A program made the translations under genes and the position numbers. Positions 818 through 33,752 of a stretch of 64,000 bases of DNA are shown here, piece after piece; within the stretch, counting starts at the first letter, position 1; each line of letters opens with the position of its first letter. Source of the DNA: Escherichia coli (lineage in GTDB: Bacteria > Pseudomonadota > Gammaproteobacteria > Enterobacterales > Enterobacteriaceae); assembly GCF_013315695.1 (NCBI RefSeq), contig NZ_CP054353.1; one strand, given 5' to 3'. The notes beneath the pieces were generated by a model. It saw only the letters and a list, made by a program, of their open reading frames with translations. It was not told the origin of the DNA and ran no database searches.

Positions 818-1367
818 GCATCATTGGAAAGTGGAAAAACAGCCTGAGTGGTACGTGAAAGCTGTCAGAAAAACTATCGCGGCGTTGCCGGGGGGTTACG
901 CTGAAGCTGCTGAGTGGCTGGATGTAACAGAGAACGCATTATTCAACCGCCTTCGTGCAGATGGCGATCAGATTTTCCCGCTGGGATGGGCAATGGTTTT
1001 ACAGCGTGCGGCTGGCACTCACTACATTGCGGATGCTGTCGCACAGTCTGCTGGTGGGGTGTTCGTATCGCTTCCTGAAATTGAGGCAGTAGAGAACGCC
1101 GATATAAACCAGCGCCTGCTGGAAGTCATTGAACAGATCGGCAGTTATTCCAGACAGATTCGTTCAGCAATCGAAGACGGTGTAGTGGAACCGCATGAGA
1201 AGACAGCAATTAACGACGAACTGTATCTTTCAATTTCGAAGCTCCAGGAGCATGCAGCACTGGTCTACAAAATCTTCTGCGCTCCAGAAAAGAGTAACGC
1301 CCGCGAGTGTGCAGCTCCGGGCGTCGTGGCGTCGATTGCTTCTGGTTGTGGAGAAACTAACGCATGA
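810..1367 (+). CDS. Early-region hypothetical protein in the cII position (possible CII-like regulator)
   Basis: 185 aa ORF, GTG start overlapping cro stop, preceded by GGAGG; function inferred only from position. Confidence 0.45.
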   Translation: MGKHHWKVEKQPEWYVKAVRKTIAALPGGYAEAAEWLDVTENALFNRLRADGDQIFPLGWAMVLQRAAGTHYIADAVAQSAGGVFVSLPEIEAVENADINQRLLEVIEQIGSYSRQIRSAIEDGVVEPHEKTAINDELYLSISKLQEHAALVYKIFCAPEKSNARECAAPGVVASIASGCGETNA

Positions 1368-2509
1368 ATAGTTTAACGGCAAATAACCGTTTGTCGCAAC
1401 AGCTGGTGGTCAGCGTCGCTGAACACCTGTTGTTACGGCATGAATGCAGATTACCAAATCACCTGGCTGTAAGTAACCACAGAGAACTTTACCTGACTGT
1501 GGGGGGCGAGTTGTGCAGGAACTTAACCGCTGGTTTCGTGACGGAAGAGGGCTTTATGTCCATGTTATTCGTTGGGAGCCAGAAACACAGCGCGTTATCT
1601 ATCTTCGCAAAGACTACCCGCATGAGTGCTTTAGTCCTTTGTGGAAATTCAGGCGTGATTTTGTTGAGTGTGAAGGACCACCAGCATATTGATTCTGCAA
1701 TTCCGGGACGTTACACTGTTCAGGCACCTTATAAAGCGGGTGCCGGGATTGGCGTCCTGAAATTCGCACATGCGCATAACCGCGCTTCAGCGGTTTTTTT
1801 GCGCACGTTTCCTCACATCCAAATTATGGTGGGGCGTGCAGGGGCATCGAAAGATGCGCCGGGGTCATGTGCGACCGGTTACGCCAACCCTGTACGTCTC
1901 ACCACCTCTGTGATTGGCGTCCCATGTGGTGAGTTTTCAAAATTCGCACATGAGGATGTCACTATGGCAACCACCCCTACCCAAACTCACCCTAAAATTG
2001 ATGTTATCCATGGGAAGGCTGTTACCTCTTCTTTGGCCGTTGCCGAATATTTCTGCAAGCAGCACAAAAACGTTATTCAAAAAATCCAGACGCTTGAGTG
2101 CTCTGTTGAATTCACTGAGCTGAATTTTCAGCCCAGTGATTACACCGATTGCACAGGCCGCAAACTCCCTTGTTACCAAATCACCCGCGACGGTTTTGCG
2201 TTTCTTGCCATGGGCTTCACGGGGAAACGTGCTGCCCGGTTCAAAGAGGCATACATCAATGCCTTTAACCAGATGGAGAAACAGCTTTCAAATCCCTCTG
2301 TACTGAGCGACGTTGCACATAACGCCAGCGTTCTCTATTCCTACATTTCATCAATTCATCAGGTCTGGCTGCAGCAGCTTTATCCTATGTTGGCAAAAGC
2401 CGAATCTCCGCTGGCTGTTAGCTTGTATGACTATATTAATGATGCTTCGGCGCTGGCCTGCCTCATAAATTTGTCGCTGAATCCTTCAGAGGTAAGGGGG
2501 CGTAAATGA
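1364..2509 (+). CDS. Rha-family phage regulatory protein, copy 1 (Rha core from ATG 1964; N-terminal extent uncertain)
   Basis: C-terminal 180 aa carry Rha signatures (KIDVIHGKAVTSSLAVAEYFCKQHKNVIQKI ... FLAMGFTGKRAARFKEAYINAFNQME). ATGA overlap with upstream stop at 1364; internal ATG 1964 has a GAGGA RBS. Confidence 0.6.
   Translation: MNSLTANNRLSQQLVVSVAEHLLLRHECRLPNHLAVSNHRELYLTVGGELCRNLTAGFVTEEGFMSMLFVGSQKHSALSIFAKTTRMSALVLCGNSGVILLSVKDHQHIDSAIPGRYTVQAPYKAGAGIGVLKFAHAHNRASAVFLRTFPHIQIMVGRAGASKDAPGSCATGYANPVRLTTSVIGVPCGEFSKFAHEDVTMATTPTQTHPKIDVIHGKAVTSSLAVAEYFCKQHKNVIQKIQTLECSVEFTELNFQPSDYTDCTGRKLPCYQITRDGFAFLAMGFTGKRAARFKEAYINAFNQMEKQLSNPSVLSDVAHNASVLYSYISSIHQVWLQQLYPMLAKAESPLAVSLYDYINDASALACLINLSLNPSEVRGRK
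1513..1692 (+). CDS. Small hypothetical protein (59 aa, GTG start), paralog of ORF 3384..3608; overlaps the copy-1 Rha upstream frame
   Basis: Frame-1 translation VQELNRWFRDGRGLYVHVIRWEPETQRVIYLRKDYPHECFSPLWKF... looks protein-like and shows DNA and protein similarity to 3384..3608 (HVLRV...QKVI); GGGGGG RBS-like run before the GTG. Confidence 0.3.
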   Translation: MQELNRWFRDGRGLYVHVIRWEPETQRVIYLRKDYPHECFSPLWKFRRDFVECEGPPAY

Positions 2510-3387
2510 TCCGGAATATTTTCAAACTGTTTACCAATCGCCACCAGCATATTGATTCTGCAATTCCGGGACGTTACACTGTTCAGGCACCTTATAAAGC
2601 GGGTGCCGGGATTGGCGTCCTGAAATTGTCAACGGCGATGTATGACGCGCCAGCGTCTTTTTTATCGTCCGCATTTGCTCACATCCAGATTATGGTGGGC
2701 TGGGCGGGGGCACCGAAAGGTGCGCCGGTCTCCGTTGACGCCGGTTACGCCAACCCCGTCCAGTTCACCACCAGTGAAATTGGCGTTTCCGGTGGTGGAA
2801 GTTTTTCACTGTCAACGGAGGCTGCCATCATGGCTACGATCCCAGCCCTCACTCAACCTGAAATCACCATTGACAACGGCCAGGCCGTTACCACTTCTTT
2901 GGCTGTTGCCAACTTCTTCTCCAAGCGTCACGACGATGTGCTGAAAAAGATCCGCACTCTGGATTGTTCCCCTGAGTTTTGTGCCCGCAATTTTGCGGAG
3001 ACATCGATTTCGGTAAATCAACCGAACGGTGGTACACGCAAGCTCCTTTGCTATCAAATCACACGAGACGGTTTTGCGTTTCTTGCTATGGGTTTCACGG
3101 GTAAACGTGCTGCCCGGTTCAAAGAGGCATACATCAATGCCTTTAACCAGATGGAAAAACTGCTTTCAAAGCCATCCACGCTGAGCGATGCCGCAGATAA
3201 CGCCAGCGTGCTTTACTCCCACCTGTCGGTAATCCACAAGGTCTGGCTGCAGCAGCTTTATCCCATGTTGGCAAAAGCCGAATCCCCGCTGGCTGTAAGT
3301 CTGTATGACCGCATCAACGACGCGGCGCTACTGGCCAGTCTCATAAATTTGTCGCTGAACCCTTCAGAGGTAAGGGGGCGTAAATGA
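2506..3387 (+). CDS. Rha-family phage regulatory protein, copy 2 (tandem paralog)
   Basis: 293 aa; Rha motifs AVTTSLAVANFFSKRHDDVLKKIRTL and FLAMGFTGKRAARFKEAYINAFNQME; ATGA start overlapping the copy-1 stop. Confidence 0.7.
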   Translation: MIRNIFKLFTNRHQHIDSAIPGRYTVQAPYKAGAGIGVLKLSTAMYDAPASFLSSAFAHIQIMVGWAGAPKGAPVSVDAGYANPVQFTTSEIGVSGGGSFSLSTEAAIMATIPALTQPEITIDNGQAVTTSLAVANFFSKRHDDVLKKIRTLDCSPEFCARNFAETSISVNQPNGGTRKLLCYQITRDGFAFLAMGFTGKRAARFKEAYINAFNQMEKLLSKPSTLSDAADNASVLYSHLSVIHKVWLQQLYPMLAKAESPLAVSLYDRINDAALLASLINLSLNPSEVRGRK

Positions 3388-10691: not shown

Positions 10692-10767
10692 GGCCCTTTA
10701 GCTCAGTGGTGAGAGCGAGCGATTCATAATCGCCAGGTCGCTGGTTCAAATCCAGCAAGGGCCACCA
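10692..10767 (+). tRNA. ileZ: tRNA-Ile2 (anticodon CAU, ileX/ileZ-like)
   Basis: 76 nt cloverleaf GGCCCTT...AAGGGCC-A-CCA; anticodon loop TTCATAA; close to the E. coli ileX sequence. Confidence 0.8.
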
Positions 10768-10774
10768 TCACATA

Positions 10775-10851
10775 CCGCCATTAGCTCATCAGGATAGAGC
10801 GCCAGCCTTCGAAGCTGGTTGCGCGGGGTTCGAGTCCTCGATGGCGGTCCA
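10775..10851 (+). tRNA. argN: tRNA-Arg (anticodon UCG)
   Basis: 77 nt; acceptor CCGCCAT/ATGGCGG; anticodon stem-loop CCAGC-CTTCGAA-GCTGG; T-loop GGTTCGAGTCC; 3' CCA. Confidence 0.8.
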
Positions 10852-10864
10852 TTATCTGTACCCT

Positions 10865-10941
10865 GCGTTATTAGCTCAGCCGGACAGAGCAATTGCCTTC
10901 TAAGCAATCGGTCACTGGTTCGAATCCAGTACAACGCGCCA
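10865..10941 (+). tRNA. argO: tRNA-Arg (anticodon UCU)
   Basis: 77 nt; anticodon loop CCTTCTAAG; T-loop GGTTCGAATCC; 3' GCCA; one acceptor-stem mismatch. Confidence 0.8.
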
Positions 10942-10952
10942 GACTTATTTTT

Positions 10953-10980
10953 CCCGGCTCGCTTTTGCGGGCTTTTTTTT
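10953..10980 (+). terminator. Terminator-like hairpin plus T8 after the tRNA cluster
   Basis: GCTCGC-TTTT-GCGGGC followed by TTTTTTTT. Confidence 0.45.
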
Positions 10981-11433
10981 AAATGTCTCACAATTCAGAC
11001 GGTTGACAGTTGTCTGTTTTGCGGGGAGTTTGTTAAAAGAAACTGGCATGGTGAATCCCCCTGTGCGGAGGGGCAATCAGCAACTGGTGTTTTGTCACCG
11101 ACCCTTATCCTTTCTGTGCGGGTTCAGGTGCTGATACTGAACTCACCGGGAGGCACCCGGCATCATGTGCATGATGATACAGATACGCGGCTTTAGCCCC
11201 TCTCCGGAGGGGCTTTCTTGTGGGCAAAAAAAAGCCCGAGTGGGTTCGGGCAACAGCATGAGATATACATTTTTATAATCGAATGGATTTTAACCAGAAT
11301 TCATAAGGCTGCGCAACTGCGCGGTCTTTTTCGAATTGCGGGCTGTCGTCTCTCTTCTGCCATTGTCCTGTAACTTCCGGACTTCAGCCCGCTCCTTATT
11401 TTACTCACAATATTATCCCGGCCGGGAGGATTC

Positions 11434-13395
11434 ATGGCATTTAAACACTATGACGTGGTCAGGGCGGCATCGCCGTCAGACCTTGCGAAACGACTGACAC
11501 AAAAACTGAAGGAGGGGTGGCAGCCATTTGGCAGTCCGGTGGCCATCACGCCTTATACCCTGATGCAGGCCATTGCGGCGGAAGGTGATGTCACCACACC
11601 TGTGGTGGTGAAGCCGTCGGATGGAGAAGGCGCAGTTATCAGCAACACCAGCAACCCGGAGTATTACTTTGTTGTTGCCCTGGCCGGGCAGTCAAACGGT
11701 ATGGCGTATGGTGAAGGGCTTCCGCTGCCGGAGACATATGACCGTCCGGACCCGCGTATTAAACAGCTGGCGCGTCGCAGCACTGTCACGCCGGGTGGTG
11801 CGTCCTGTAACTACAATGACATTATTCCTGCGGACCACTGCCTGCATGATGTTCAGGATTTGAGTAAGTTTTCACACCCGAAAGCCAGCGCAGCTCAGTA
11901 TGGATGCGTGGGGCAGGGATTACATATCGCGAAGAAATTGTTGCCGTTTATTCCGGCGAATGCCGGTATTCTTCTGGTTCCGTGCTGCCGTGGTGGTTCT
12001 GCATTTTTGGCGGGCGATGAAGGTACCTTCAGCGAATCCACCGGCGCAAGCGAGACCTCGGCACGCTGGGGTGTAGATAAGCCACTGTACAAGGACCTGC
12101 TTACCCGTACTCAGGCCGCACTGAAGGCCAACCCTAAAAATATTCTGCTTGCAGTGGTCTGGATGCAGGGCGAGTTTGATTTGAAACAGGGTGCATACGC
12201 CACTCAGCCGGGGCTGTTTGATTCCATGGTGGAAAAATATCGTTCTGACCTGTCGGAATTCGGAGGTCAGTGTCTCGGGGGCTCTCCGTCATCAGTTCCC
12301 TGGATTTGTGGCGACACGACCTACTACTGGAAGCAGACTTATTCTTCGCAATACGATGCGGTGTATGGTGCATATAAGACGAAATCCGCAAAAAAAATCT
12401 TCTTTGTGCCGTTTATGACGGATGAAAACGGGCGAAATGTGGGTACCAACGAGCCGTCAGAAGATCCGGATGTTGCGGATATTGGGTATTACGGAGCCGG
12501 TGGTCGAACGGACGCCAAAACCTGGACGACGGCTGACCGTAAAACGCATTTTGGATCATGGGCACGTCGTGGGATTATTTCCGACCGTCTGGCAACGGCG
12601 ATTCTTGTGCATGCCGGGAGAACCGCTGAATTCATTACCGGAAAACAGCCTGATACGGTGAAGCCCACCGGACCTTCCGGTGAAGGTACGGAGAGAGAGC
12701 CGGAAGGTCCGGTCAGTAACCGAACCCTGATGAGTCTGCTGGCGTCCGGCGAAGACCTGGCATCACAGGGCTGGCGCTATTATCACAAACCGGCGAGCGG
12801 AGACAATGTTAACAAAAACATTGCTGAAGCGGTGGTCAGTGATGCGGGGGCTACGGGAGGTAAGGCCCTGCAACTGAATAAACCGGAAAACCACATCTGG
12901 TTTCTGGAGCATGATGCAGCCGGGCAGGGGGCAGAGTTGCTGAAGAAAGGAGGACGTGTGAGCGTACGGTTTAAGTTGCCGGGTTCACTGGTGCCGAATC
13001 AGTTTGCCCTGGGCATTTACTGGCAGTTGTCGTCCCTGCCGGAGGGAGTGACGCTGGCAGAGGAAGGCAACGACATGCTGATGTCCTTCTTTCTGCAGAC
13101 GGATGCGACGAACCTGAACGCGATGCACCACAAGAAGCCGAATGCGAAGCTGGAAACGTTCGGGGTCTTTGATAACGGATGGCACACACTGGCTTTTGAG
13201 TTTGCCGGAAACAACAGCATTCAGGTGACGCCGGTACTGGATGAGAAACGGGGGACGCCGTTCACACTGGTGAAATCTCCGGCATCAGGGGCGGCGGACA
13301 AACTGCAACTGACAGGCATATCAAAGGCGGCGACATATACGCTGCTGATTGACAGTGTGAAGGTGGAAGTGAACAACGCGGATGCCGCGGCATGA
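11434..13395 (+). CDS. nanS: Prophage 9-O-acetyl-sialate esterase NanS-p (DUF1737 plus SASA/SGNH esterase)
   Basis: 653 aa; N-terminus MAFKHYDVVRAASPSDLAKRL (DUF1737); esterase motif YYFVVALAGQSNGMAYGE; sits where Stx phages carry nanS-p downstream of stx. Confidence 0.85.
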   Translation: MAFKHYDVVRAASPSDLAKRLTQKLKEGWQPFGSPVAITPYTLMQAIAAEGDVTTPVVVKPSDGEGAVISNTSNPEYYFVVALAGQSNGMAYGEGLPLPETYDRPDPRIKQLARRSTVTPGGASCNYNDIIPADHCLHDVQDLSKFSHPKASAAQYGCVGQGLHIAKKLLPFIPANAGILLVPCCRGGSAFLAGDEGTFSESTGASETSARWGVDKPLYKDLLTRTQAALKANPKNILLAVVWMQGEFDLKQGAYATQPGLFDSMVEKYRSDLSEFGGQCLGGSPSSVPWICGDTTYYWKQTYSSQYDAVYGAYKTKSAKKIFFVPFMTDENGRNVGTNEPSEDPDVADIGYYGAGGRTDAKTWTTADRKTHFGSWARRGIISDRLATAILVHAGRTAEFITGKQPDTVKPTGPSGEGTEREPEGPVSNRTLMSLLASGEDLASQGWRYYHKPASGDNVNKNIAEAVVSDAGATGGKALQLNKPENHIWFLEHDAAGQGAELLKKGGRVSVRFKLPGSLVPNQFALGIYWQLSSLPEGVTLAEEGNDMLMSFFLQTDATNLNAMHHKKPNAKLETFGVFDNGWHTLAFEFAGNNSIQVTPVLDEKRGTPFTLVKSPASGAADKLQLTGISKAATYTLLIDSVKVEVNNADAAA

Positions 13396-18112: not shown

Positions 18113-18124
18113 GGGCGGCGACCT
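18113..18124 (+). other. cosN cohesive-end site (lambda-type)
   Basis: ACGGGGCGGCGACCTCGCGGATTTTCACTATTTATGAAAATTTTCCGG matches the lambda cos region (GGGCGGCGACCT 12-nt cohesive end, then TCGCGGGTTTTCGCTATTTATGAAAATTTTCCGG) just upstream of Nu1. Confidence 0.7.
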
Positions 18125-18308: not shown

Positions 18309-18818
18309 GTGGCTACGCAGACTGAAGTTGCCAGGCATTTAAGTCTGACCGATCGCCAGCTTCGCAGATTGCAGAAATTGCCGGGTGCCCCGATATCGAA
18401 TAAGCGAGGGCAACTGGATCTGGATGCCTGGCGCGATTTTTACATATCGTATCTGAGAAGAAGTAAAAACGATGTGCCTGATGGCGATAGCGAAGACGAC
18501 TATGAGGAGAAATTGCTTATTGCCAGATGGGAACTGACAGCAGAACAGGCTGTTACACAGCAGTTAAAAAATGAGGTGTCAAAAGGAAAACTTATTGACA
18601 CCGGGTTCTGTATTTTTGCCCTCAGCAAGCTGGCAATGGCGTTATCCAGTACGCTTGATTCCATCCCTTTATCCATGCAGCGACAGTTTCCTGATTTAAC
18701 ACCGCGCCATCTTGACCATCTGAAAACCCTTATTGCGAAGGGGGCAAATCAGTGTGCGCGGGCGGGGGATAAATTACCGGATTTACTCGATGAATATATC
18801 AGAGCAACAACTGAATAA
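18309..18818 (+). CDS. nu1: Terminase small subunit (lambda Nu1 homolog)
   Basis: C-terminal half ...TGFCIFALSKLAMALSSTLDSIPLSMQRQFPDLTPRHLDHLK...LLDEYI parallels lambda Nu1; GTG start downstream of cos. Confidence 0.85.
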   Translation: MATQTEVARHLSLTDRQLRRLQKLPGAPISNKRGQLDLDAWRDFYISYLRRSKNDVPDGDSEDDYEEKLLIARWELTAEQAVTQQLKNEVSKGKLIDTGFCIFALSKLAMALSSTLDSIPLSMQRQFPDLTPRHLDHLKTLIAKGANQCARAGDKLPDLLDEYIRATTE

Positions 18819-20707
18819 TATGATGAGTGCTGTCACAACAGCATTACAGCCCCTGATAAGGGCATTGCCGGTGACGCCAGTTGAATGGGCTGATCAAAAT
18901 TATTATCTGCCTAAAGAATCTTCATATGGTGAGGGAGAATGGAAAACGCTGCCGTTCCAGATCGCCATCATGAACAGCATGGGGAATGATCAGATCCGGA
19001 CTGTTAATCTGATTAAATCTGCCCGTGTTGGCTATACAAAGATGTTGCTGGGGGTGGTCGGGTATTTTATTGAGCATAAATCCCGAAACAGTCTGCTTTT
19101 TCAGCCCACGGATTCTGCCGCTGAAGATTTTATGAAGTCTCACGTGGAGGCGACGATTCGGGATGTGCCATGTCTGAAAGACCTTTCTCCATGGCTGGGG
19201 CGTAAACATCGTGACAATACTCTCACGCTGAAACGCTTTTCATCGGGTGTGGGCTTCTGGTGCCTGGGCGGCGCTGCCGCCAAAAACTACCGTGAAAAAT
19301 CCGTGGACGTGGTCTGCTATGACGAACTTTCCTCGTTCGAACCGGATGTCGAAAAAGAGGGTTCGCCAACCCTGCTTGGGGATAAACGTATTGAGGGCTC
19401 TGTATGGCCCAAATCCATTCGCGGCTCGACGCCTAAAATCAAAGGCACCTGCCAGATCGAAAAAGCGGCCAACGAGTCGGCGCATTTCATGCGTTTTTAT
19501 GTGCCCTGCCCGCACTGTGGGGAGGCGCAGTATCTGAAATTTGGCGATGAGTCCACGCCTTTTGGCCTTAAATGGGAGAAGGACAGCCCCGAAAGCGTTT
19601 TCTACCTCTGTGAACATCATGGCTGCGTGATCCATCAGTCTGAGCTTGACCAGAGCAACGGGCGGTGGATCTGTGAAAACACGGGGATGTGGACCCGCGA
19701 CGGTCTGACGTTTTTCAGCGCTGCGGATAATGAAATTCCGCCGCCGCGCTCCATCACATTCCATATCTGGACGGCGTACAGTCCGTTCACCACCTGGGTA
19801 CAGATTGTCTATGACTGGCTGGATGCACTGAAAGATCCCAACGGCCTGAAAACCTTTGTGAACACCACGCTGGGCGAGACCTGGGAAGAGGCCGTGGGCG
19901 AAAAACTCGATCACCAGGTGCTGATGGATAAGGTTGTGCGTTACACGGCTGCGGTGCCTTCCCGGGTGGTTTATCTGACGGCGGGCATTGACTCGCAGCG
20001 AAACCGTTTTGAGATGTATGTCTGGGGATGGGCTCCGGGAGAGGAAGCCTTTCTGGTGGATAAAATCATCATTATGGGGCGTCCCGATGAGGAAGAGACG
20101 CTGTTACGTGTGGATGTGGCGATCAACAAAAAATACCGCCATGCAGACGGAACCGAAATGACCATTTCCCGTGTCTGCTGGGACACCGGGGGGAATTGTC
20201 TATCAGAGGTCAAAAAAACACGGTGTTTTCCGGGTGCTGCCGGTAAAAGGTGCATCTGTTTATGGCAAGCCGGTGATCACCATGCCAAAAACCCGCAATC
20301 AGCGGGGCGTGTATCTGTGCGAAGTGGGGACGGACACCGCAAAAGAAATTCTCTATGCCCGTATGAAAGCCGATCCCACGCCTGCGGATGAAGCCACGTC
20401 GTATGCCATCCGTTTTCCTGATGATCCGGAGATTTTTTCGCAGACAGAGGCGCAGCAACTGGTGGCGGAAGAGCTTGTGGAGAAGTGGGAAAAAGGAAAG
20501 ATGCGTCTGCTGTGGGATAACAAAAAGCGGCGTAACGAAGCGCTGGACTGCCTGGTGTATGCCTACGCGGCATTACGTGTGTCCGTGCAACGCTGGCAGC
20601 TTGATCTGGCTGTACTGGCAAAATCCCGGGAAGAAGAGACGACCCGGCCAACCCTTAAAGAACTGGCAGCGAAGCTGTCCGGAGGAGTGAATGGTTACAG
20701 TCGCTGA
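18790..20707 (+). CDS. A: Terminase large subunit (lambda gpA homolog) with an apparent +1 frameshift in a G6 run near 20188-20193
   Basis: Two overlapping ORFs (18733..20391 and 20171..20707) together align with lambda gpA (...ISRVCWDTGG | IVYQRSKKHGVFRV...); the frame changes at CCGGGGGGAATT. Confidence 0.8.
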
Positions 20708-20897
20708 ACTGCAGGCGCTGCGTCAGGCGCGCCTTGATTTATTAACCGGTAAACGGGTGGTGTCTGTCCAGAAAGATGGTCGCAGAATTGAATATACGGC
20801 AGCTTCTCTGGATGAGCTTAACCGGGCGATCAATGATGCGGAGTCGGTACTGGGGACAACCCGCCGTCGCCGTCGTCCGCTGGGAGTGAGGTTATGA
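20691..20897 (+). CDS. W: Head-tail joining protein gpW
   Basis: 68 aa; LTGKRVVSVQKDGRRIEYTAASLDELNRAI parallels lambda W. Confidence 0.8.
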   Translation: MVTVAELQALRQARLDLLTGKRVVSVQKDGRRIEYTAASLDELNRAINDAESVLGTTRRRRRPLGVRL

Positions 20898-22486
20898 AAC
20901 GAACGCCTGTCCTGATTGATGTGAACGGCGTTCCGCTTCGGGAGAGCCTCAGCTACAACGGTGGCGGTGCAGGATTTGGCGGGCAAATGGCAGAGTGGTT
21001 GCCACCCTCGCAGAGTGCCGATGCGGCCCTGCTGCCCGCGTTGCGTCTGGGGAATGCCCGTGCAGATGATCTGGTGCGCAATAACGGAATAGCGGCCAAT
21101 GCGGTGGCCCTGCATAAGGATCACATTGTCGGGCATATGTTTCTGATCAGTTACCGTCCGAACTGGCGCTGGCTGGGGATGCGGGAGACCGCGGCAAAAA
21201 GTTTTGTCGATGAGGTGGAGGCGGCCTGGTCAGAATACGCAGAAGGGATGTTTGGTGAGATCGACATGGAAGGGAAACGCACGTTCACGGAATTTATCCG
21301 TGAAGGTGTGGGCGTTCATGCGTTTAACGGCGAAATCTTTGTGCAGCCGGTCTGGGATACGGAGAGCACGCAACTGTTTCGTACGCGTTTTAAAGCCGTG
21401 AGTCCGAAACGGGTGGACACGCCAGGACACGGTATGGGGAACCGTTTTCTGCGGGCCGGTGTGGAGGTCGATCGATATGGTCGTGCCGTTGCGTACCATA
21501 TCTGTGAGGATGATTTTCCTCGCTCCGGGAGTGGACGATGGGAACGGATCCCGCGTGAACTTCCCACCGGGCGTCCGGCCATGCTGCATATTTTCGAGCC
21601 GGTGGAGGACGGGCAGACCCGTGGGGCCAATCAGTTTTACAGCGTAATGGAACGGCTGAAGATGCTCGATTCCCTGCAGGCAACACAGCTTCAGTCGGCC
21701 ATAGTGAAGGCGATGTATGCAGCGACGATTGAAAGTGAACTTGATACCGAAAAGGCCTTTGAATATATCGCCGGTGCGCCGCAGGGGCAGAAGGATAATC
21801 CGCTTATTAATATTCTGGAGAAGTTCTCCACCTGGTATGACACGAATAGCGTGACGCTGGGCGGTGTCAAAATTCCGCACCTTTTCCCCGGTGATGATCT
21901 GAAACTTCAGACCGCGCAGGATTCAGACAATGGATTTTCGGCGCTTGAACAGGCGCTGCTGCGGTATATCGCCGCCGGTCTTGGCGTTTCCTACGAACAG
22001 TTGTCCCGTGATTACTCGAAGGTCAGTTATTCAAGTGCCCGCGCATCCGCCAATGAGTCGTGGCGCTATTTTATGGGGCGGCGAAAATTTATTGCGTCCC
22101 GGCTGGCCACGCAGATGTTTTCCTGCTGGCTGGAAGAGGCACTTCTTCGGGGGATTATTCGTCCGCCACGGGCGCGTTTTGATTTTTATCAGGCGCGATC
22201 AGCCTGGTCACGGGCTGAGTGGATTGGAGCCGGAAGAATGGCCATTGACGGGCTCAAGGAGGTTCAGGAATCAGTGATGCGCATTGAGGCCGGACTGAGC
22301 ACGTATGAGAAAGAGCTGGCGCTGATGGGCGAGGATTATCAGGACATTTTCCGCCAGCAGGTCAGGGAATCTGCAGAGCGGGAAAAAGCCGGACTCTCAC
22401 GTCCGGTGTGGATAGCGCAGGCGTATCAGCAGCAGATAGCGGAGAGTCGCAGGCCGGAAGAGGAGACAACACCACGTGAGACGTAA
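20894..22486 (+). CDS. B: Portal protein gpB
   Basis: 530 aa; lambda-like order and size; ATGA coupling with W. Confidence 0.85.
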   Translation: MKRTPVLIDVNGVPLRESLSYNGGGAGFGGQMAEWLPPSQSADAALLPALRLGNARADDLVRNNGIAANAVALHKDHIVGHMFLISYRPNWRWLGMRETAAKSFVDEVEAAWSEYAEGMFGEIDMEGKRTFTEFIREGVGVHAFNGEIFVQPVWDTESTQLFRTRFKAVSPKRVDTPGHGMGNRFLRAGVEVDRYGRAVAYHICEDDFPRSGSGRWERIPRELPTGRPAMLHIFEPVEDGQTRGANQFYSVMERLKMLDSLQATQLQSAIVKAMYAATIESELDTEKAFEYIAGAPQGQKDNPLINILEKFSTWYDTNSVTLGGVKIPHLFPGDDLKLQTAQDSDNGFSALEQALLRYIAAGLGVSYEQLSRDYSKVSYSSARASANESWRYFMGRRKFIASRLATQMFSCWLEEALLRGIIRPPRARFDFYQARSAWSRAEWIGAGRMAIDGLKEVQESVMRIEAGLSTYEKELALMGEDYQDIFRQQVRESAEREKAGLSRPVWIAQAYQQQIAESRRPEEETTPRET

Positions 22487-23981
22487 TCTTTCACACATTA
22501 TTGCCGCAGCATTCAATGAACCGCTGCTTCTGGAGCCCGCCTATGCGCGGGTTTTCTTTTGCGCGCTCGGGCGCGAGATGGGGGCAGCAAGTCTTTCGGT
22601 ACCGCAACAGCAGGTACAGCTTGATGCTCCCGGGATGCTGGCTGAAACGGACGAGTACATGGCCGGAGGTAAACGACCGGCCCGTGTTTACCGGGTGGTG
22701 AACGGTATTGCGGTACTGCCGGTGACCGGCACGCTGGTGCACCGGCTGGGGGGGATGCGGCCATTTTCCGGAATGACTGGCTATGACGGCATTGTCGCCT
22801 GTCTTCAGCAGGCAATGGCAGATAGCCAGGTGCGGGGCATACTGCTGGACATTGACAGTCCGGGCGGGCAGGCCGCCGGCGCGTTTGACTGCGCTGACAT
22901 GATTTACCGCCTCCGGCAGCAGAAGCCGGTCTGGGCACTGTGTAATGACACGGCCTGTTCTGCAGCCATGCTGCTGGCGTCGGCCTGCTCCCGACGGCTG
23001 GTTACCCAGACATCCCGTATCGGCTCCATTGGCGTGATGATGAGCCATGTCAGCTATGCCGGTCATCTGGCGCAGGCCGGTGTGGATATCACGCTGATTT
23101 ACTCAGGAGCGCACAAGGTGGATGGCAATCAGTTTGAAGCGTTGCCGGCAGAGGTTCGCCAGGACATGCAGCAGCGGATTGATGCGGCGCGCCGGATGTT
23201 TGCCGAAAAAGTGGCGATGTATACCGGTCTGTCTGTTGATGCGGTCACGGGAACAGAGGCTGCCGTTTTTGAAGGTCAGTCCGGCATTGAGGCCGGGCTG
23301 GCGGATGAATTAATCAATGCGTCGGATGCCATCAGTGTGATGGCCACGGCGCTGAACAGTAATGTCAGAGGAGGCACTATGCCGCAATTAACTGCAACGG
23401 AAGCCGCCGTGCAGGAGAACCAGCGAGTGATGGGGATCCTGACATGCCAGGAAGCGAAAGGACGTGAACAGCTTGCCACGATGCTGGCAGGGCAACAGGG
23501 CATGAGCGTTGAACAGGCCCGGGCGATTCTGGCCGCGGCGGCACCGCAGCAGCCGGTGGCATCCGCACAGAGTGAAGCCGATCGCATTATGGCGTGTGAA
23601 GAAGCGAACGGTCGTGAACAACTGGCGGCAACGCTGGCGGCGATGCCGGAGATGACGGTGGAAAAAGCCCGCCCGATCCTGGCTGCTTCACCGCAGGCGA
23701 ATGCCGGACCATCACTCCGTGATCAGATCATGGCACTGGATGAGGCAAAAGGGGCTGAGGCGCAGGCTGAACAGCTGGCTGCCTGCCCGGGAATGACTGT
23801 GGAGAGCGCCCGGGCTGTGCTGGCTGCGGGATCAGGTAAGGCAGAACCGGTCTCTGCATCCACAACCGCCCTGTTTGAACATTTCATGGCGAACCATTCA
23901 CCGGCTGCGGTCCAGGGGGGCGTGTCACAGGCGTCAGAAGACGGTGATGCGGACGTGAAAATGCTCATGGCCATGCCATGA
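22476..23981 (+). CDS. C: Head maturation protease / scaffold (gpC with Nu3-like C-terminus, S49 peptidase)
   Basis: N-terminus AAFNEPLLLEPAYARVFFCAL and GIAVLPVTGTLVHR...SGMTGYDGI parallel lambda C; three tandem ~37-aa repeats in the C-terminus. Confidence 0.85.
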   Translation: MRRNLSHIIAAAFNEPLLLEPAYARVFFCALGREMGAASLSVPQQQVQLDAPGMLAETDEYMAGGKRPARVYRVVNGIAVLPVTGTLVHRLGGMRPFSGMTGYDGIVACLQQAMADSQVRGILLDIDSPGGQAAGAFDCADMIYRLRQQKPVWALCNDTACSAAMLLASACSRRLVTQTSRIGSIGVMMSHVSYAGHLAQAGVDITLIYSGAHKVDGNQFEALPAEVRQDMQQRIDAARRMFAEKVAMYTGLSVDAVTGTEAAVFEGQSGIEAGLADELINASDAISVMATALNSNVRGGTMPQLTATEAAVQENQRVMGILTCQEAKGREQLATMLAGQQGMSVEQARAILAAAAPQQPVASAQSEADRIMACEEANGREQLAATLAAMPEMTVEKARPILAASPQANAGPSLRDQIMALDEAKGAEAQAEQLAACPGMTVESARAVLAAGSGKAEPVSASTTALFEHFMANHSPAAVQGGVSQASEDGDADVKMLMAMP

Positions 23982-24017
23982 AGTCAGTGCTGAACATCAA
24001 TACGAGGTTTTTACAAT

Positions 24018-24365
24018 ATGGTGACGAAAACCATCACTGAACAGCGTGCGGAAGTACGTATTTTTGCCGGTAATGATCCGGCTCACACCGCCACAGGCAG
24101 CAGCGGGATTTCCTCGGCAACACCGGCACTGACACCCCTGATGCTGGATGGGGCCACCGGGAAACTGGTGGTCTGGGACGGACAGAAAGCCGGTAGTGCG
24201 GTTGGCATACTGGTACTGCCGCTTGAAGGCACAGAGGAGGTGCTGACCTATTACAAGTCGGGGACCTTTGCGACGGAGGCAATCCGCTGGCCTGAAAGTG
24301 TGGATGAACACAAAAAGGCCAACGCCTTTACCGGCAGTGCCCTGAGTCACGCGGCGCTGCCGTAA
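24018..24365 (+). CDS. D: Head decoration protein gpD
   Basis: 115 aa; NDPAHTATGSSG...TPLMLD...KLVVWDG...AVGILVLP parallels lambda D. Confidence 0.85.
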   Translation: MVTKTITEQRAEVRIFAGNDPAHTATGSSGISSATPALTPLMLDGATGKLVVWDGQKAGSAVGILVLPLEGTEEVLTYYKSGTFATEAIRWPESVDEHKKANAFTGSALSHAALP

Positions 24366-24422
24366 CACGTTATCAGGCCACCGCGTTGGCCTGACTGATT
24401 TCTTAATGAAAGGAACTGATTT

Positions 24423-25451
24423 ATGGGATTGTTTACGACCCGCCAGTTACTCGGTTATACCGAACAAAAAGTTAAATTCCGTGCGCTGTTTCTGGAGCTG
24501 TTTTTCCGCCGTACGGTGAATTTCCACACCGAAGAGGTGATGCTGGACAAAATTACCGGAAAAACGCCGGTGGCGGCCTATGTCTCCCCGATCGTTGAAG
24601 GAAAAGTGCTTCGCCATCGCGGTGGTGAAACCCGCGTGTTACGTCCGGGCTACGTCAAGCCCAAACACGAATTTAATTACCAGCAGGCGGTTGAGCGCCT
24701 TCCTGGTGAAGATCCGGCTCAGCTGAACGACCCGGCCTACCGTCGTCTGCGTATCATTACCGATAACCTCAAACAGGAAGAGCACGCCATTGTCCAGGTG
24801 GAAGAAATGCAGGCGGTGAATGCCGTGCTGTATGGCAAATACACCATGGAAGGGGATCAGTTTGATACTGTCGAGGTGGATTTCGGGCGCTCTGAAGGAA
24901 ATAACATTGAGCAGGCTGACGGTAAAAAATGGTCTGAGCAGGACCGTGATACGTTTGATCCGACGCATGATATTGACCTCTACTGCGATCAGGCCAGCGG
25001 CCTTGTGAATATCGCCATTATGGACGGTACGGTCTGGCGTCTGCTGAATGGCTTTAAGCTGTTCCGCGAAAAACTGGATACCCGTCGCGGCTCAAATTCA
25101 CAACTCGAAACGGCAGTGAAAGATCTGGGGGCGGTGGTGTCCTTCAAGGGGTATTACGGCGATCTGGCCATTGTGGTGGCGAAAACGTCTTATGTGGCAG
25201 AGGACGGTACCGAAAAACGTTATCTGCCGGAGGGCATGCTGGTGCTGGGGAATACGGCAGCAGAGGGCATTCGTTGCTATGGTGCCATTCAGGATGCGCA
25301 GGCGTTGTCCGAAGGTGTGGTGGCCTCTTCCCGTTACCCGAAACACTGGCTGACCGTGGGCGATCCGGCCCGTGAATTCACCATGACGCAGTCCGCACCG
25401 CTGATGGTGCTGCCGGATCCGGATGAGTTTGTGGTGGTACAGGTGAAATAA
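24423..25451 (+). CDS. E: Major capsid protein gpE
   Basis: 342 aa; YVSPIVEGKVLRHRGGETRVLRPGYVKPKHE ... TGDPAREFTMTQSAPLM parallel lambda E. Confidence 0.9.
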   Translation: MGLFTTRQLLGYTEQKVKFRALFLELFFRRTVNFHTEEVMLDKITGKTPVAAYVSPIVEGKVLRHRGGETRVLRPGYVKPKHEFNYQQAVERLPGEDPAQLNDPAYRRLRIITDNLKQEEHAIVQVEEMQAVNAVLYGKYTMEGDQFDTVEVDFGRSEGNNIEQADGKKWSEQDRDTFDPTHDIDLYCDQASGLVNIAIMDGTVWRLLNGFKLFREKLDTRRGSNSQLETAVKDLGAVVSFKGYYGDLAIVVAKTSYVAEDGTEKRYLPEGMLVLGNTAAEGIRCYGAIQDAQALSEGVVASSRYPKHWLTVGDPAREFTMTQSAPLMVLPDPDEFVVVQVK

Positions 25452-27987: not shown

Positions 27988-28419
27988 ATGTTCCTGAAAA
28001 CAGAACAATTTGAATATAACGGTGTATCCGTCACGCTTTCTGAGCTGTCTGCGCTGCAGCGTATTGAGCATCTTGCCCTCCTGAAACGGCGGGCAGAAGA
28101 GGCTGAAGCCAGCGGCAACCTGCAGGTGAGTGTGGAAGATCTTGTCAGAACCGGCGCGTTTCTGGTGGCGATGTCCCTGTGGCATAACCATCCACAGAAA
28201 ACGCAGTCACCGTCAATGAATGAGGCCGTGATGAAGATAGAGCAGGAAGTGCTCACCACCTGGCCTGCCGATGCCATTGCCCGGGCGGAAGACGTGGTGT
28301 TGTGCCTGTCCGGGATGATCGAAGCTGTTCGTCCGGATACTGATATTACTGAAGTGGCGAAAAATAACACGCTGACTGATGATGATTTTTCTGCGGGAAA
28401 GTCTTCGACGGCGAGCTGA
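27988..28419 (+). CDS. G: Tail assembly chaperone gpG
   Basis: 143 aa; MFLKTEQFEYNGVSVTLSELSALQRIEHLALLKRRAEE parallels lambda G; slippery site near the 3' end. Confidence 0.8.
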   Translation: MFLKTEQFEYNGVSVTLSELSALQRIEHLALLKRRAEEAEASGNLQVSVEDLVRTGAFLVAMSLWHNHPQKTQSPSMNEAVMKIEQEVLTTWPADAIARAEDVVLCLSGMIEAVRPDTDITEVAKNNTLTDDDFSAGKSSTAS

Positions 28420-28859
28420 ACTTTGCCCTCAGACTGGCGCGTGAGATGGGGAGACCCGACTGGCGCGCCATGCTTGCCGGGATGACATCCACCGAATATG
28501 CCGACTGGCACCGTTTTTACCGCACGCATTATTTTCAGGATACCCAGCTGGATATGCATTTTTCCGGGCTGACGTACGCTGTACTCAGCCTGTTTTTTTG
28601 CGATCCGGATATGCATCCCTCTGATTTCAGTCTGCTTGTCCCCCGGCATGAGGAAGAGCAGGTGGAGAGGCCGGATGAGGACAAAATGCTGATGCAGAAA
28701 GCGGCAGGACTTGCCGGAGGCGTCCGGTTCGGTGGGGACGGAGGGCGCGATATTTTATCGTCTGCGGATGTGGCGGATGTCATGGTGGATGATGCCGCAT
28801 TAATGATGGCTTCAGCGGGGATTCCGGGAGGTGTGAGATATGTCCCAGCCGGTTGGTGA
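27988..28859 (+). CDS. T: gpGT fusion made by -1 programmed ribosomal frameshift at GGGAAAG (28395-28401)
   Basis: Heptamer G GGA AAG sits 6 codons before the G stop; the -1 frame continues ...GKVFDGELNFALRLAREMGRPDWRAM... into the T ORF (28446..28859). Confidence 0.7.
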
Positions 28860-31401: not shown

Positions 31402-31727
31402 AAACCTTTCGCTGGAAAGTGAAGCCGGATATGGAGGTGAACTCGCAGCCATCGGTGCGTGAAGTGCGTTTTGGTGACGGGTACTCACAGCGTATGGCGG
31501 CAGGGCTGAATGCTGACCTGAAAACATACAGGGTGACGCTTTCCGTGACCCGGGAGGAGGCCCGGCATCTGGAAGCGTTCCTGGCAGAGCACGGTGGCTG
31601 GAAGGCATTTTTGTGGAAGCCACCCTATGCATACCGGCAGATAAAGGTGACCTGTGCCGGGTGGTCTGCGCGGGTCGGGATGTTGCGCGTTGAGTTCAGC
31701 GCGGAGTTTAAGCAGGTGGTGAACTGA
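31398..31727 (+). CDS. M: Minor tail protein gpM
   Basis: 109 aa; lambda order and size. Confidence 0.85.
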   Translation: MKTFRWKVKPDMEVNSQPSVREVRFGDGYSQRMAAGLNADLKTYRVTLSVTREEARHLEAFLAEHGGWKAFLWKPPYAYRQIKVTCAGWSARVGMLRVEFSAEFKQVVN

Positions 31728-32425
31728 TGCAGGATATTCGCGAAGAAAGTCTGAACGAGTCGGTTAAGTCAGAGCAGTCACCGCGGGTGGTACTCTGGGA
31801 AATCGACCTGACGGTACAGGGTGGTGAGCGGTATTTTTTCTGTAATGAGCTGAATGAAAAAGGGGAGCCGGTCACCTGGCAGGGGCGTAAGTATGAGGCA
31901 TACCCGATTGACGGCAGCGGCTTTGAGATGAACGGCCGGGGCAGCAGTGCCAGACCGTCGCTGACGGTGTCCAATCTGTTCGGTCTGGTCACCGGGATGG
32001 CGGAAGACCTGCAGAGTCTGGTGGGGGCCACGGTGGTCCGCCGCCGGGTGTATGCCCGTTTTCTGGATGCGGTGAATTTCGTTGCGGGCAATCCGGAGGC
32101 GGACCCGGAGCAGGAGCTGAGTGACCGCTGGGTGGTGGAGCAGATGTCGCAGCTGACAGCCATGACGGCCTCGTTTGTGCTGGCCACACCGACCGAGACG
32201 GACGGGGCGCTGTTTCCCGGTCGCATCATGCTGGCGAACACCTGTATGTGGGATTACCGGGGAGATGAATGCGGGTATAACGGTCCTGCGGTGGCGGATG
32301 AGTTCGACAACCCCACCACGGATATCCGTAAGGACAGATGCAGCAAGTGCATGCGCGGGTGTGAGATGCGCGGCATGGTGGCTAATTTTGGCGGTTTCCT
32401 TTCCATTAACAAACTTTCGCAGTAA
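31727..32425 (+). CDS. L: Minor tail protein gpL
   Basis: 232 aa; C-terminal Cys cluster CSKCMRGCEMRG; lambda L-like. Confidence 0.85.
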   Translation: MQDIREESLNESVKSEQSPRVVLWEIDLTVQGGERYFFCNELNEKGEPVTWQGRKYEAYPIDGSGFEMNGRGSSARPSLTVSNLFGLVTGMAEDLQSLVGATVVRRRVYARFLDAVNFVAGNPEADPEQELSDRWVVEQMSQLTAMTASFVLATPTETDGALFPGRIMLANTCMWDYRGDECGYNGPAVADEFDNPTTDIRKDRCSKCMRGCEMRGMVANFGGFLSINKLSQ

Positions 32426-32430
32426 ATCCA

Positions 32431-33174
32431 ATGACACAGACAGAATCAGCGATTCTGGCGCATGCCCGGCGGTGTGTGCCTGCGGAGTCGTGCGGCTTAG
32501 TGGTGAGAACGCCGGAGGGGGAGCGGTATATCCCTTGTGTGAATATCTCTGCAGAGCCGGAGGCGTATTTTCGTATTGCACCGGAAGACTGGCTGCGGGC
32601 AGAGATGCAGGGGGAGATTGTGGCACTGGTCCACAGTCATCCCGGTGGGCTGCCCTGGCTGAGCGAGGCTGACCGGCGGCTGCAGATAAAAAGCGCACTG
32701 CCCTGGTGGCTGGTCTGCCGGGGTGACATTCACAAATTCCGCTGCGTGCCGCACCTGACGGGACGGCGCTTTGAGCACGGGGTGACGGACTGTTACACCC
32801 TGTTCCGGGATGCATACCATCTGGCGGGGACTGAAATGCCGGATTTTCATCGCGAGGATGACTGGTGGCGCAACGGTCAGAACCTTTACCTGGACAATAT
32901 GGCGGTCACCGGCTTTTACCGGGTGCCCCTGTCCTCTGCACAGGCGGGCGATATTCTGCTGTGCTGCTTTGGTGCTTCGGTACCGAACCATGCCGCCATT
33001 TACTGCGGCAACGGTGAGCTGCTTCACCATCTGCCTGAACAACTGAGTAAACGGGAGAGGTATTCCGAAAAATGGCAACGACGAACGCATTCTGTCTGGC
33101 GTCACCGCCACTGGCACGCATCTGCCTTCACGGGGATTTGCAACGATTTGGCCGCCGCCTCAGCCTGTATGTGA
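32431..33174 (+). CDS. K: Tail assembly protein gpK (MPN/JAB plus NlpC/P60-like)
   Basis: 247 aa; JAMM-like motif EIVALVHSHPGG; lambda K position. Confidence 0.8.
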   Translation: MTQTESAILAHARRCVPAESCGLVVRTPEGERYIPCVNISAEPEAYFRIAPEDWLRAEMQGEIVALVHSHPGGLPWLSEADRRLQIKSALPWWLVCRGDIHKFRCVPHLTGRRFEHGVTDCYTLFRDAYHLAGTEMPDFHREDDWWRNGQNLYLDNMAVTGFYRVPLSSAQAGDILLCCFGASVPNHAAIYCGNGELLHHLPEQLSKRERYSEKWQRRTHSVWRHRHWHASAFTGICNDLAAASACM

Positions 33175-33752
33175 ACACGGCAGCGGAAGCCATTCGCGCC
33201 CTGTCGATGCAGATGCCGGGCTTTCGCCGTCAGATGAACGAAGGCTGGTACCAGATACGTATTGCCGGTGATGACACGGCACCGGAGGCGGTGTATGCCC
33301 GTCTTCACGAACAGCTGGGTGAGGGAACGGTCATCCACATTGTGCCGCGACTGGCCGGGGCCGGAAAGGGTGGACTGCAGATTGTGCTGGGGGCGGCAGC
33401 CATCGTGGGCTCTTTCTTCACGGCCGGAGGCTCGATGGCGTTATGGGGTACAGCCCTGAGTGCCGGTGGTTTTTCTGCCACCACGATGCTGTTTTCACTG
33501 GGTGCCAGCATGATACTGGGCGGAGTGGCCCAGATGCTGGCCCCGAAGGCAAAAACACCGGATTACCGCGCAACGGATAACGGCAGACAGAACACGTACT
33601 TTTCCTCGCTGGATAACATGATTGCCCAGGGGAACCCGATGCCGGTGCCTTACGGGGAAATGCTGGTTGGCTCCCGCCGTATATCCCAGGACATCAGCAC
33701 CCGTGATGAAGGCGGGGGCGGAAAGGTCGTGGTTATCGGGCGGCAGGGGTAA
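33072..33752 (+). CDS. I: Tail assembly protein gpI
   Basis: 226 aa; overlaps the K 3' end in another frame; Gly-rich hydrophobic C-terminal half; start uncertain. Confidence 0.65.
   Translation: MATTNAFCLASPPLARICLHGDLQRFGRRLSLYVNTAAEAIRALSMQMPGFRRQMNEGWYQIRIAGDDTAPEAVYARLHEQLGEGTVIHIVPRLAGAGKGGLQIVLGAAAIVGSFFTAGGSMALWGTALSAGGFSATTMLFSLGASMILGGVAQMLAPKAKTPDYRATDNGRQNTYFSSLDNMIAQGNPMPVPYGEMLVGSRRISQDISTRDEGGGGKVVVIGRQG

What the first reader, a model, noticed from the sequence alone, without database searches (positions are those of the whole stretch)
20171..20200. Apparent +1 frameshift in the terminase large-subunit gene at a G6 homopolymer
The gpA-like reading frame aligns with lambda gpA up to ...ISRVCWDTGG, then continues only in the +1 frame (IVYQRSKKHGVFRV...). 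The junction is CCGGGGGGAATT (six G at 20188-20193); five G would restore the frame. This is either a sequencing/assembly homopolymer error or a genuine inactivating mutation that would leave the prophage unable to package DNA.
Basis: seen in the sequence. Interest (0 to 1): 0.5.

Follow-up and report, generated by a model that had tools for sequence, protein, structure and literature searches.

The report
11-bp deletion breaks prophage terminase gene
The large terminase gene of a lambda-like prophage in this E. coli is broken by a private 11-base deletion next to a run of six G (not by an extra G), an ordinary case of a prophage losing its own DNA-packaging enzyme.

Summary
The frame break is real. 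The gpA-type terminase gene (18790-20707) reads in frame 1 to ...CWDTGG (codon 468, ending at 20193) and continues only in frame 2 (IVYQRSKKHG...). The six G at 20188-20193 are there. Intact relatives (phage 21, PhiR12_1, and the near-clonal E. coli MSB1_4I) also have six G, encoding Gly-Gly in frame. The window instead lacks the next 11 bases (ATCGATGGCGA, part of codons Ile-Asp-Gly-Glu). Apart from this the gene encodes a protein identical to the intact 642-aa protein of MSB1_4I. The 23.4-kb chromosomal flank differs from that strain by 1 SNP and no indel, so a genuine, recent deletion is much more likely than a sequencing error. The deletion was found nowhere else: none of the 1,707 complete E. 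coli genome records that match this stretch has it, and viral, metagenome and species-representative collections gave no hits. The predicted product keeps the ATPase domain and half of the nuclease domain. It loses 174 residues, including the C-terminus that in lambda docks on the prohead. The prophage probably cannot package itself, but its cos site is intact, so a co-resident prophage with the same terminase could rescue it. Ordinary; low interest.

The parts
18113..18124 (+). cosN core GGGCGGCGACCT, the 12-base cohesive-end sequence, 185 nt upstream of the small terminase gene
   Evidence: Exact match, the only one in the window. The position corresponds to cos in phage 21, where the cohesive end is at 1-12 and the small subunit gene starts at 189.
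18309..18818 (+). Small terminase subunit gene (Nu1/gp1 type), intact, 169 aa
   Evidence: ORF. It has the same length and position as the annotated terminase small subunit WP_000235436.1 in MSB1_4I and AF3.
18790..20193 (+). Large terminase gene, native N-terminal part in frame 1, codons 1-468, ending ...CWDTGG. Holds the ATPase domain and the first half of the nuclease domain.
   Evidence: Identical at 468 of 468 residues to the intact MSB1_4I protein. Pfam on the intact protein: GpA_ATPase 48-293, GpA_nuclease 323-601.
20188..20193 (+). G6 run encoding Gly467-Gly468. This is the wild-type length.
   Evidence: G6 in phage 21, PhiR12_1, MSB1_4I and both AF3 copies.
20193..20195 (+). Deletion junction. 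11 bp are missing here (ATCGATGGCGA after 20193, or equivalently TCGATGGCGAA after 20194), with only 1 nt of microhomology (A).
   Evidence: Alignments A1 and A3. It is the only frame-breaking indel against MSB1_4I in 40.9 kb, and appears as the same 11-bp gap against AF3.
20194..20391 (+). Out-of-frame tail of the truncated product: 65 missense codons (NCLSEVKKTRCF...) and stop TGA at 20389-20391
   Evidence: Translation; stop context.
20195..20707 (+). Large terminase gene, stranded C-terminal part in frame 2, equal to codons 473-642 of the intact gene. Holds the second half of the nuclease domain and the C-terminal tail.
   Evidence: Identical at 170 of 170 residues to MSB1_4I; alignment A2.
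20691..20897 (+). Head-tail joining gene (W/gp3 type), intact. Its start overlaps the normal terminase stop.
20894..22486 (+). Portal protein gene, intact, 530 aa
   Evidence: same length as the annotated portal gene.

Best explanation
This is a genuine, recent, strain-private 11-bp deletion. It removes ATCGATGGCGA, the bases that follow the Gly-Gly codons GGG GGG and encode most of Ile-Asp-Gly-Glu 469-472. The deletion shifts the large terminase gene of a phage-21/lambda-like prophage, integrated between mlrA and btsS, into the +1 frame. Shown: translation from ATG 18790 gives 468 native residues plus 65 missense residues and then stops at 20391. The product therefore lacks residues 469-642, which are the second half of the GpA nuclease domain and the C-terminal tail. 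Inferred from lambda genetics: the terminase cannot both cut cos correctly and dock on the portal, so the prophage cannot package its own DNA. Also inferred: ribosomes now stop about 300 nt before gene W, so the overlap-based coupling to W and the portal gene may weaken as well. All other late genes in the window are full length and cosN is intact. The element could therefore still be packaged in trans by a co-resident prophage that makes the same terminase.
For: (1) Intact genes carry G6 plus the 11 bases: phage 21, PhiR12_1, MSB1_4I and the AF3 second prophage. AF3's same-site copy, broken elsewhere, carries them too. (2) Both halves of the window's gene encode residues identical to the intact 642-aa protein WP_001530580.1. 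That protein is seen on 382 contigs. There is no secondary decay, so the lesion is recent. (3) The assembly is clean. The chromosomal flank 40500-63916 differs from MSB1_4I by 1 SNP and 0 gaps in 23,417 bp. Within the prophage the only unpaired indels in 40.9 kb are this one and a 5-bp difference at 32431 inside a mosaic block, apparently between the L and K genes. (4) An 11-bp loss of non-repetitive sequence is not a homopolymer-type error. (5) Pfam places residue 468 inside GpA_nuclease 323-601. (6) Lambda Aam42, which lacks only the last 5 residues of gpA, is defective in prohead binding and gives very low yield (PMC4856287). (7) cosN is exact at 18113-18124. (8) Trans rescue has a precedent: Sp4 of O157 Sakai lacks an intact terminase, yet its DNA is packaged, probably by the terminase of Sp14, which has a near-identical cos (PMC2669165). 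The sister genomes hold 2-3 copies of this terminase region. AF3's second prophage has identical TerS and TerL proteins and differs from the window by 0-1 bases per 500 bp across 17.5-19 kb, which includes cos.
Against: No reads are available, so an assembly or polishing artefact cannot be excluded. The allele was found in no other sequence, so nothing independent confirms that it exists in nature. The lesion sits next to a G6 run and starts inside a GATC Dam site, and both contexts are error-prone on some platforms. Loss of function is inferred from lambda genetics and domain boundaries, not measured. The rest of the genome is not visible, so a helper terminase in this strain is inferred only from relatives.
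Confidence: 0.85

Rival explanations
1. Assembly, consensus or polishing artefact: the strain really has the intact gene, and the 11 bases were lost in silico. For example, short reads from the 2-3 near-identical terminase copies in the genome could have been mis-mapped during polishing, or a long-read consensus could have dropped bases at a G6/GATC context.
For: The allele is unique among all collections searched and shows no secondary decay. Relatives carry 2-3 paralogous copies of this region, which complicates assembly. The site adjoins a homopolymer and a Dam site.
Against: The missing bases are non-repetitive and there are 11 of them, unlike typical 1-2-base homopolymer errors. No other unpaired indel occurs in 23.4 kb of flank. 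In the rest of the prophage the only one is a 5-bp difference inside a mosaic block, apparently between genes. Every paralogous copy inspected contains the 11 bases, so mixing copies could not create the deletion.
Confidence: 0.1
2. One reading: a one-base expansion of a G5 run to G6, either a real slipped-strand mutation or a homopolymer sequencing error, is what shifted the frame.
For: Removing one G would put the downstream sequence back in frame. The tract does vary in length elsewhere: four complete genomes have G5.
Against: Intact genes have G6, not G5. In the G5 genomes the gene is annotated 'frameshifted'. The window additionally lacks 11 bases that all relatives have. A G5-to-G6 origin would need a separate in-frame 12-bp deletion plus a 1-base insertion, two events instead of one.
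Confidence: 0.01
3. Recoding or leaky expression: a +1 shift on the G run (ribosomal GGG-to-GGA re-pairing, or RNA polymerase slippage) yields some full-length 638-aa protein lacking IDGE, and this keeps packaging activity.
For: Frames 1 and 2 overlap without stops from 20162 to 20391. The run offers a possible re-pairing site exactly at the junction.
Against: The two-frame arrangement is not conserved: none of the 1,707 records that match this stretch has it. No known +1 stimulator is present; the next codon in frame 1 is AAT, not a stop codon. I-D of the missing IDGE is conserved between the phage-21 type and lambda and lies right after the conserved WDTGG motif, so a protein lacking these four residues may be inactive. 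G6 is short for transcriptional slippage (general knowledge).
Confidence: 0.03

Closest known systems
Phage 21 gp2 / lambda gpA large terminase (intact reference genes; Pfam GpA_ATPase PF05876 + GpA_nuclease PF20454)
   Same: Same gene order: cos, small subunit, large subunit, W, portal. About 92% nucleotide identity to phage 21 over most of the 2,051-bp query. The intact sister protein is 91% identical to phage 21 gp2 and 66% identical to lambda gpA. Same two Pfam domains.
   Different: The window's copy lacks 11 bp after codon 468 and cannot encode residues 469-642 in frame.
Intact allele of the same prophage in E. coli MSB1_4I (NZ_LR898874, WP_001530580.1)
   Same: Same integration site and gene content. 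The flank has 1 SNP in 23.4 kb. The terminase-coding residues are identical on both sides of the break.
   Different: MSB1_4I has the 11 bases and an uninterrupted 1,929-nt gene. It also differs in two mosaic blocks at 21-24.5 kb and 31.5-33.5 kb.
G5 frameshift alleles of the same G tract (E. coli ExPEC XM, 95-3192, BEC1-S17-ESBL-09, RM10809-3)
   Same: Same gene and same tract. The result is likewise a terminase pseudogene annotated 'frameshifted'.
   Different: Those are one-base contractions of the homopolymer (-1 frame) with the 11 bases present. The window keeps G6 and loses the 11 bases (+1 frame).
Sp4 of E. coli O157:H7 Sakai, a lambdoid prophage without an intact terminase (PMC2669165)
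   Same: A lambdoid prophage whose own packaging enzyme is broken, in a host that carries other similar lambdoid prophages. Trans-packaging by a neighbour's terminase with a near-identical cos was proposed there.
   Different: In Sp4 the small subunit gene is hit by an IS insertion. Here the large subunit carries a small deletion. Trans rescue has not been tested for this strain.
Lambda A amber mutants such as Aam42 (PMC4856287)
   Same: C-terminally truncated gpA, with loss of the prohead-binding end and very low phage yield that is rescued in trans by wild-type terminase.
   Different: Aam42 loses 5 residues and still nicks cos. This allele loses 174 residues, including half of the nuclease domain.

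Membership tests
Lambda gpA-type large terminase gene (functional member) | N-terminal GpA ATPase domain | tested here: met
   Pfam GpA_ATPase 48-293, E = 3e-55, on the intact sister protein. Window residues 1-468 are identical to it.
Lambda gpA-type large terminase gene (functional member) | Complete C-terminal GpA nuclease domain and C-terminal tail in one reading frame | tested here: not met
   The nuclease domain spans 323-601. The frame breaks after residue 468, and the frame-1 product ends with 65 unrelated residues.
Lambda gpA-type large terminase gene (functional member) | Position between the small terminase gene and the W/portal genes, downstream of cos | tested here: met
Homopolymer-length (slipped-strand) frameshift | Run length differs from that of intact relatives | tested here: not met
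   G6 in the window and in the intact relatives.
Homopolymer-length (slipped-strand) frameshift | The indel consists of repeat units of the run | tested here: not met
   The missing bases are ATCGATGGCGA, which are not G.
Programmed ribosomal frameshift | The two-frame arrangement is conserved among relatives | tested here: not met
   None of the 1,707 E. coli records that match this stretch has the junction, and there are no hits in three other collections. By contrast, the conserved gpG/gpGT heptamer GGGAAAG is present at 28395-28401.
Programmed ribosomal frameshift | Slippery site plus a stimulatory element, and a detectable trans-frame product | not testable with these tools
   This needs protein analysis. 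Only the overlap of the open frames (20162-20391) was established.
Defective (packaging-deficient) prophage | At least one essential morphogenesis or packaging gene is disrupted | tested here: met
   The large terminase gene is frame-broken.
Defective (packaging-deficient) prophage | Failure to produce infectious particles on induction | not testable with these tools
   This needs an induction experiment. The integrase/excisionase end of the prophage lies outside the window; the window starts at position 1702 of locus L004.

The most novel reading that the evidence does not exclude
The break may be reversible through the neighbouring G run. The 11-bp loss put the gene in the +1 frame, so a G6-to-G5 contraction would restore the frame here. 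The same contraction is seen in four other complete genomes, where it breaks the gene. The contraction could occur in DNA, or the equivalent slip could occur during transcription or translation. The result would be a 638-aa terminase lacking only Ile-Asp-Gly-Glu. If that protein works, the prophage is switchable or leaky rather than permanently unable to package itself.
Probability: 0.04. Interest if true: 0.3.

Novelty: already known. Interest (0 to 1): 0.1.

Why it matters
On its own it matters little. Small deletions that inactivate prophage genes are routine, and terminase-defective lambdoid prophages are well described in E. coli. The practical value lies in annotation: the gene should be called a pseudogene caused by an 11-bp deletion, not flagged as a homopolymer error to be 'corrected' to G5. 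There is also a modest population observation. In three closely related strains the prophage at this site has an intact terminase (MSB1_4I), this deletion (the window), and an independent nonsense codon E190* (AF3). Four further genomes carry G5 frameshifts at the same tract. The packaging gene of this prophage family is therefore hit repeatedly.

Tried and rejected
(1) I searched the exact 37-base junction in viral contigs, metagenome contigs and genome contigs and got 0 hits in each, so there is no independent occurrence of the allele. (2) Exact look-ups of the 533-aa truncated product and the 178-aa frame-2 ORF found neither in the 15-billion-protein collection or its contig index. This is uninformative about the source genome, because NCBI annotation emits no protein for a pseudogene. 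(3) Junction-spanning queries against complete E. coli genomes and plasmids reached at best 88.9% identity, which corresponds to the G5 alleles. (4) A sequence search of the intact protein against PDB chains found no match, so I attempted no residue-level structural mapping. I did not run structure prediction or the large protein searches, because the answer did not depend on them. (5) A literature search for the lambda gpA nuclease residues I recalled (D401, E586) returned only a T4 gp17 paper, so I do not use that claim as evidence. The alignment does show that the lambda residues at those numbers are conserved acidic positions, one on each side of the break. (6) I looked for a direct repeat or other microhomology that could explain the deletion and found only 1 nt (A). 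The start inside GATC/ATCGAT is noted but not interpreted. (7) I considered chimeric assembly between paralogous prophages and rejected it, because every copy inspected contains the 11 bases.

Full report
OBSERVATION. The sequence at 20181-20200 is ggacaccggggggaattgtc, so six G occupy 20188-20193 as reported. Two overlapping ORFs are present. ORF 18733..20391 is in frame 1; the real start is ATG 18790, by comparison with annotated relatives. ORF 20171..20707 is in frame 2. Frame 1 translated from 18790 gives 468 residues ending ...ISRVCWDTGG, followed by 65 unrelated residues and a stop at 20389-20391. Frame 2, which is open from 20162, encodes IVYQRSKKHGVFRV... up to the normal terminase stop at 20705-20707.

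WHAT ACTUALLY HAPPENED. A megablast of 18700-20750 against phage genomes found full-length matches to PhiR12-type phages (97.9%) and matches over most of the query to phage 21 (92%). In each case the record span was 11 bases longer than the query. The base-level alignment (A1) shows that intact genes read ACC GGG GGG ATC GAT GGC GAA ATT GTC, which is T G G I D G E I V. They also have six G, and these encode Gly-Gly in frame. The window reads ACC GGG GGG | AAT TGT C. It lacks the 11 bases ATCGATGGCGA; the placement TCGATGGCGAA is equivalent, with 1 nt of microhomology. The same holds against E. coli MSB1_4I, both copies in strain AF3, and phage 21. At the protein level lambda has WDTGG-IDPT-IVYE and the phage-21 type has WDTGG-IDGE-IVYQ. 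The G run is not altered. The lesion is an 11-bp deletion, and a loss of 11 bases has the same effect on frame as a +1 shift.

CONTEXT. The window is E. coli chromosome carrying a lambdoid prophage. The prophage has a Q antiterminator, tRNA Met/Arg/Arg, a SASA esterase, lysis genes, cos, phage-21-type head genes and lambda-type tail genes. To its right lie btsS/btsR, the yeh genes, metG and apbC. The left boundary at mlrA is seen in AF3 and lies outside the window. MSB1_4I (NZ_LR898874) carries the same prophage at the same site. The chromosomal flank 40500-63916 differs from it by 1 SNP and no gaps in 23,417 bp. Across the prophage (1-40895) there are 214 substitutions, clustered in two mosaic blocks at 21-24.5 kb and 31.5-33.5 kb. 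The indels in those blocks are compensating pairs, plus a 5-bp difference at 32431 that appears to fall between the L and K genes. The only frame-breaking indel is the 11-bp deletion. In MSB1_4I the gene is an uninterrupted 1,929 nt encoding the 642-aa protein WP_001530580.1, a sequence seen on 382 contigs. The window's residues 1-468 and 473-642 are identical to that protein, so no further decay has accumulated. All other late genes in the window have the lengths annotated in MSB1_4I. The cohesive-end core GGGCGGCGACCT is exact at 18113-18124.

REAL OR ARTEFACT. No reads are available. Several points favour a real mutation. The loss is 11 non-repetitive bases, unlike a homopolymer miscall. 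The surrounding 64 kb is otherwise free of unpaired indels relative to a near-clonal genome, apart from the 5-bp difference inside a mosaic block. Every paralogous copy inspected contains the 11 bases, so mixing copies could not create the deletion. The points that prevent certainty are these. The allele is unique. An 80-base junction query matched 1,707 complete-genome records, all at 88.9% identity or less, and plasmid records behaved the same way. The 37-base junction is absent from the viral, metagenome and species-representative collections. The truncated proteins are not on record. I put a real deletion at about 0.85 and an artefact at about 0.1.

CONSEQUENCE (shown and inferred). Shown: Pfam places GpA_ATPase at 48-293 and GpA_nuclease at 323-601 of the intact protein. 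The break after residue 468 leaves the ATPase domain and 146 residues of the nuclease domain. It removes 174 residues, including the C-terminal tail. Inferred from lambda work: the gpA C-terminus contacts the portal, and Aam42, which lacks only the last five residues, is defective in prohead binding and gives very low yield unless wild-type terminase is supplied in trans (PMC4856287). A product lacking 174 residues should therefore be unable to support packaging. Also inferred: gene W starts at 20691, overlapping the normal terminase stop, so premature termination at 20391 may reduce expression of W and the portal gene. Because cos and the other late genes are intact, trans-packaging is plausible. 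Sp4 of O157 Sakai, which has no intact terminase, is still packaged, probably by the terminase of Sp14, which has a near-identical cos (PMC2669165). The sister genomes carry 2-3 copies of this terminase region. AF3's second prophage encodes the same TerS and TerL proteins and differs from the window by 0-1 bases per 500 bp across 17.5-19 kb, which includes cos. Whether the window's own genome has such a helper cannot be seen from the window.

A G5-to-G6 expansion is ruled out, because intact genes have G6. It would also require a separate 12-bp deletion. The tract is nonetheless a real length-variation site. Four complete genomes (ExPEC XM, 95-3192, BEC1-S17-ESBL-09, RM10809-3) have G5 with the 11 bases present. 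These lie on two sequence backgrounds, and all are annotated 'frameshifted'. One consequence is that the same G6-to-G5 contraction would restore the frame in this window, giving a protein without IDGE. I keep that as the low-probability novel reading. No evidence supports programmed recoding: the arrangement is not conserved, and the next codon in frame 1 is AAT rather than a stop codon. The window's canonical programmed frameshift is elsewhere, at the gpG/gpGT heptamer GGGAAAG, 28395-28401.

COMPARISON AND VERDICT. The gene belongs to the lambda gpA/phage 21 gp2 family by sequence, domains and synteny, but it fails the requirement of a complete nuclease domain and C-terminus in one frame. It is a terminase pseudogene in an otherwise well-preserved prophage. 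This kind of lesion is well known. One local point is of some interest. The prophage at this site in AF3 carries an independent nonsense mutation in the same gene (E190*, GAG to TAG) and a G7-to-G8 frameshift in the S49 protease gene, while MSB1_4I is intact. Packaging genes of this prophage are therefore being lost repeatedly in one lineage. Novelty: already known. Interest: about 0.1.

Noticed in passing
L002 2590-2604; L010, L011 and L012 61-150 (same tract as window 20188-20193): Four complete E. coli genomes (ExPEC XM, 95-3192, BEC1-S17-ESBL-09, RM10809-3) have G5 instead of G6 at this tract, with the 11 bases present. They lie on two backgrounds (GGC or GGT in the following Gly codon), and all four genes are annotated 'frameshifted'. 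The tract is a recurrent one-base contraction site, or a recurrent sequencing-error site.
   Followed up: yes
L009 26828-28756 and 30780-30815 (E. coli AF3, prophage at the same mlrA/btsS site): The same-site prophage in strain AF3 has an independent nonsense mutation in the large terminase gene (codon 190, GAG to TAG). It also has a G7-to-G8 frameshift in the S49 head protease/scaffold gene. The window and MSB1_4I have G7 there.
   Followed up: yes
window 28395-28401: The canonical -1 slippery heptamer G GGA AAG lies in frame near the end of the tail assembly chaperone gene G (27988..28419), ahead of gene T (28446..28859). This is the conserved gpG/gpGT programmed frameshift of lambda-like phages.
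   Followed up: partly
window 21000-24500 and 31500-33500: Substitutions against the near-clonal MSB1_4I prophage are concentrated in two blocks: portal/protease-scaffold genes and tail genes L/K. The second block differs from the AF3 same-site prophage by only one base, while 23.5-24.5 kb differs from every relative fetched. This looks like patchwise recombination among lambdoid prophages.
   Followed up: partly
window 47671-48737: yehP (vWA-domain protein) is split into two ORFs. Both sister genomes annotate the same gene as 'frameshifted', and the flank is gap-free against them, so this pseudogene is inherited in the lineage.
   Followed up: partly
window 52494-53262, 55672-57018, 63149-63916: There are two IS1 copies and one IS4 copy in the chromosomal flank. 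IS4 and one IS1 interrupt WGR/DUF4132-domain genes next to metG, and the second IS1 truncates a fimbrial adhesin-like gene after yehE.
   Followed up: partly
window 10692-13395: A tRNA Met/Arg/Arg cluster lies downstream of the Q antiterminator and is followed by a 653-aa SASA-family carbohydrate esterase gene. From my own knowledge, this late-region layout is typical of Shiga-toxin phages. No ORF of 120 aa or more other than 10819..11196 lies between the tRNAs and the esterase gene, so the stx A-subunit gene does not appear to be present.
   Followed up: no
window 20388-20691: The premature frame-1 stop TGA (20389-20391) overlaps an ATG at 20388 (ATGA). That ATG opens a 100-codon frame-3 ORF ending at 20690, one base before the ATG of gene W. 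It is probably coincidence, but it could relay ribosomes to W in the mutant.
   Followed up: no
window 20193-20194 (ancestral sequence GGGGGGATCGATGGCGAA): The deleted segment begins inside a Dam methylation site (GATC, formed by the last G of the run) and a ClaI palindrome (ATCGAT). Only 1 nt of microhomology flanks the deletion. No mechanism is inferred.
   Followed up: no
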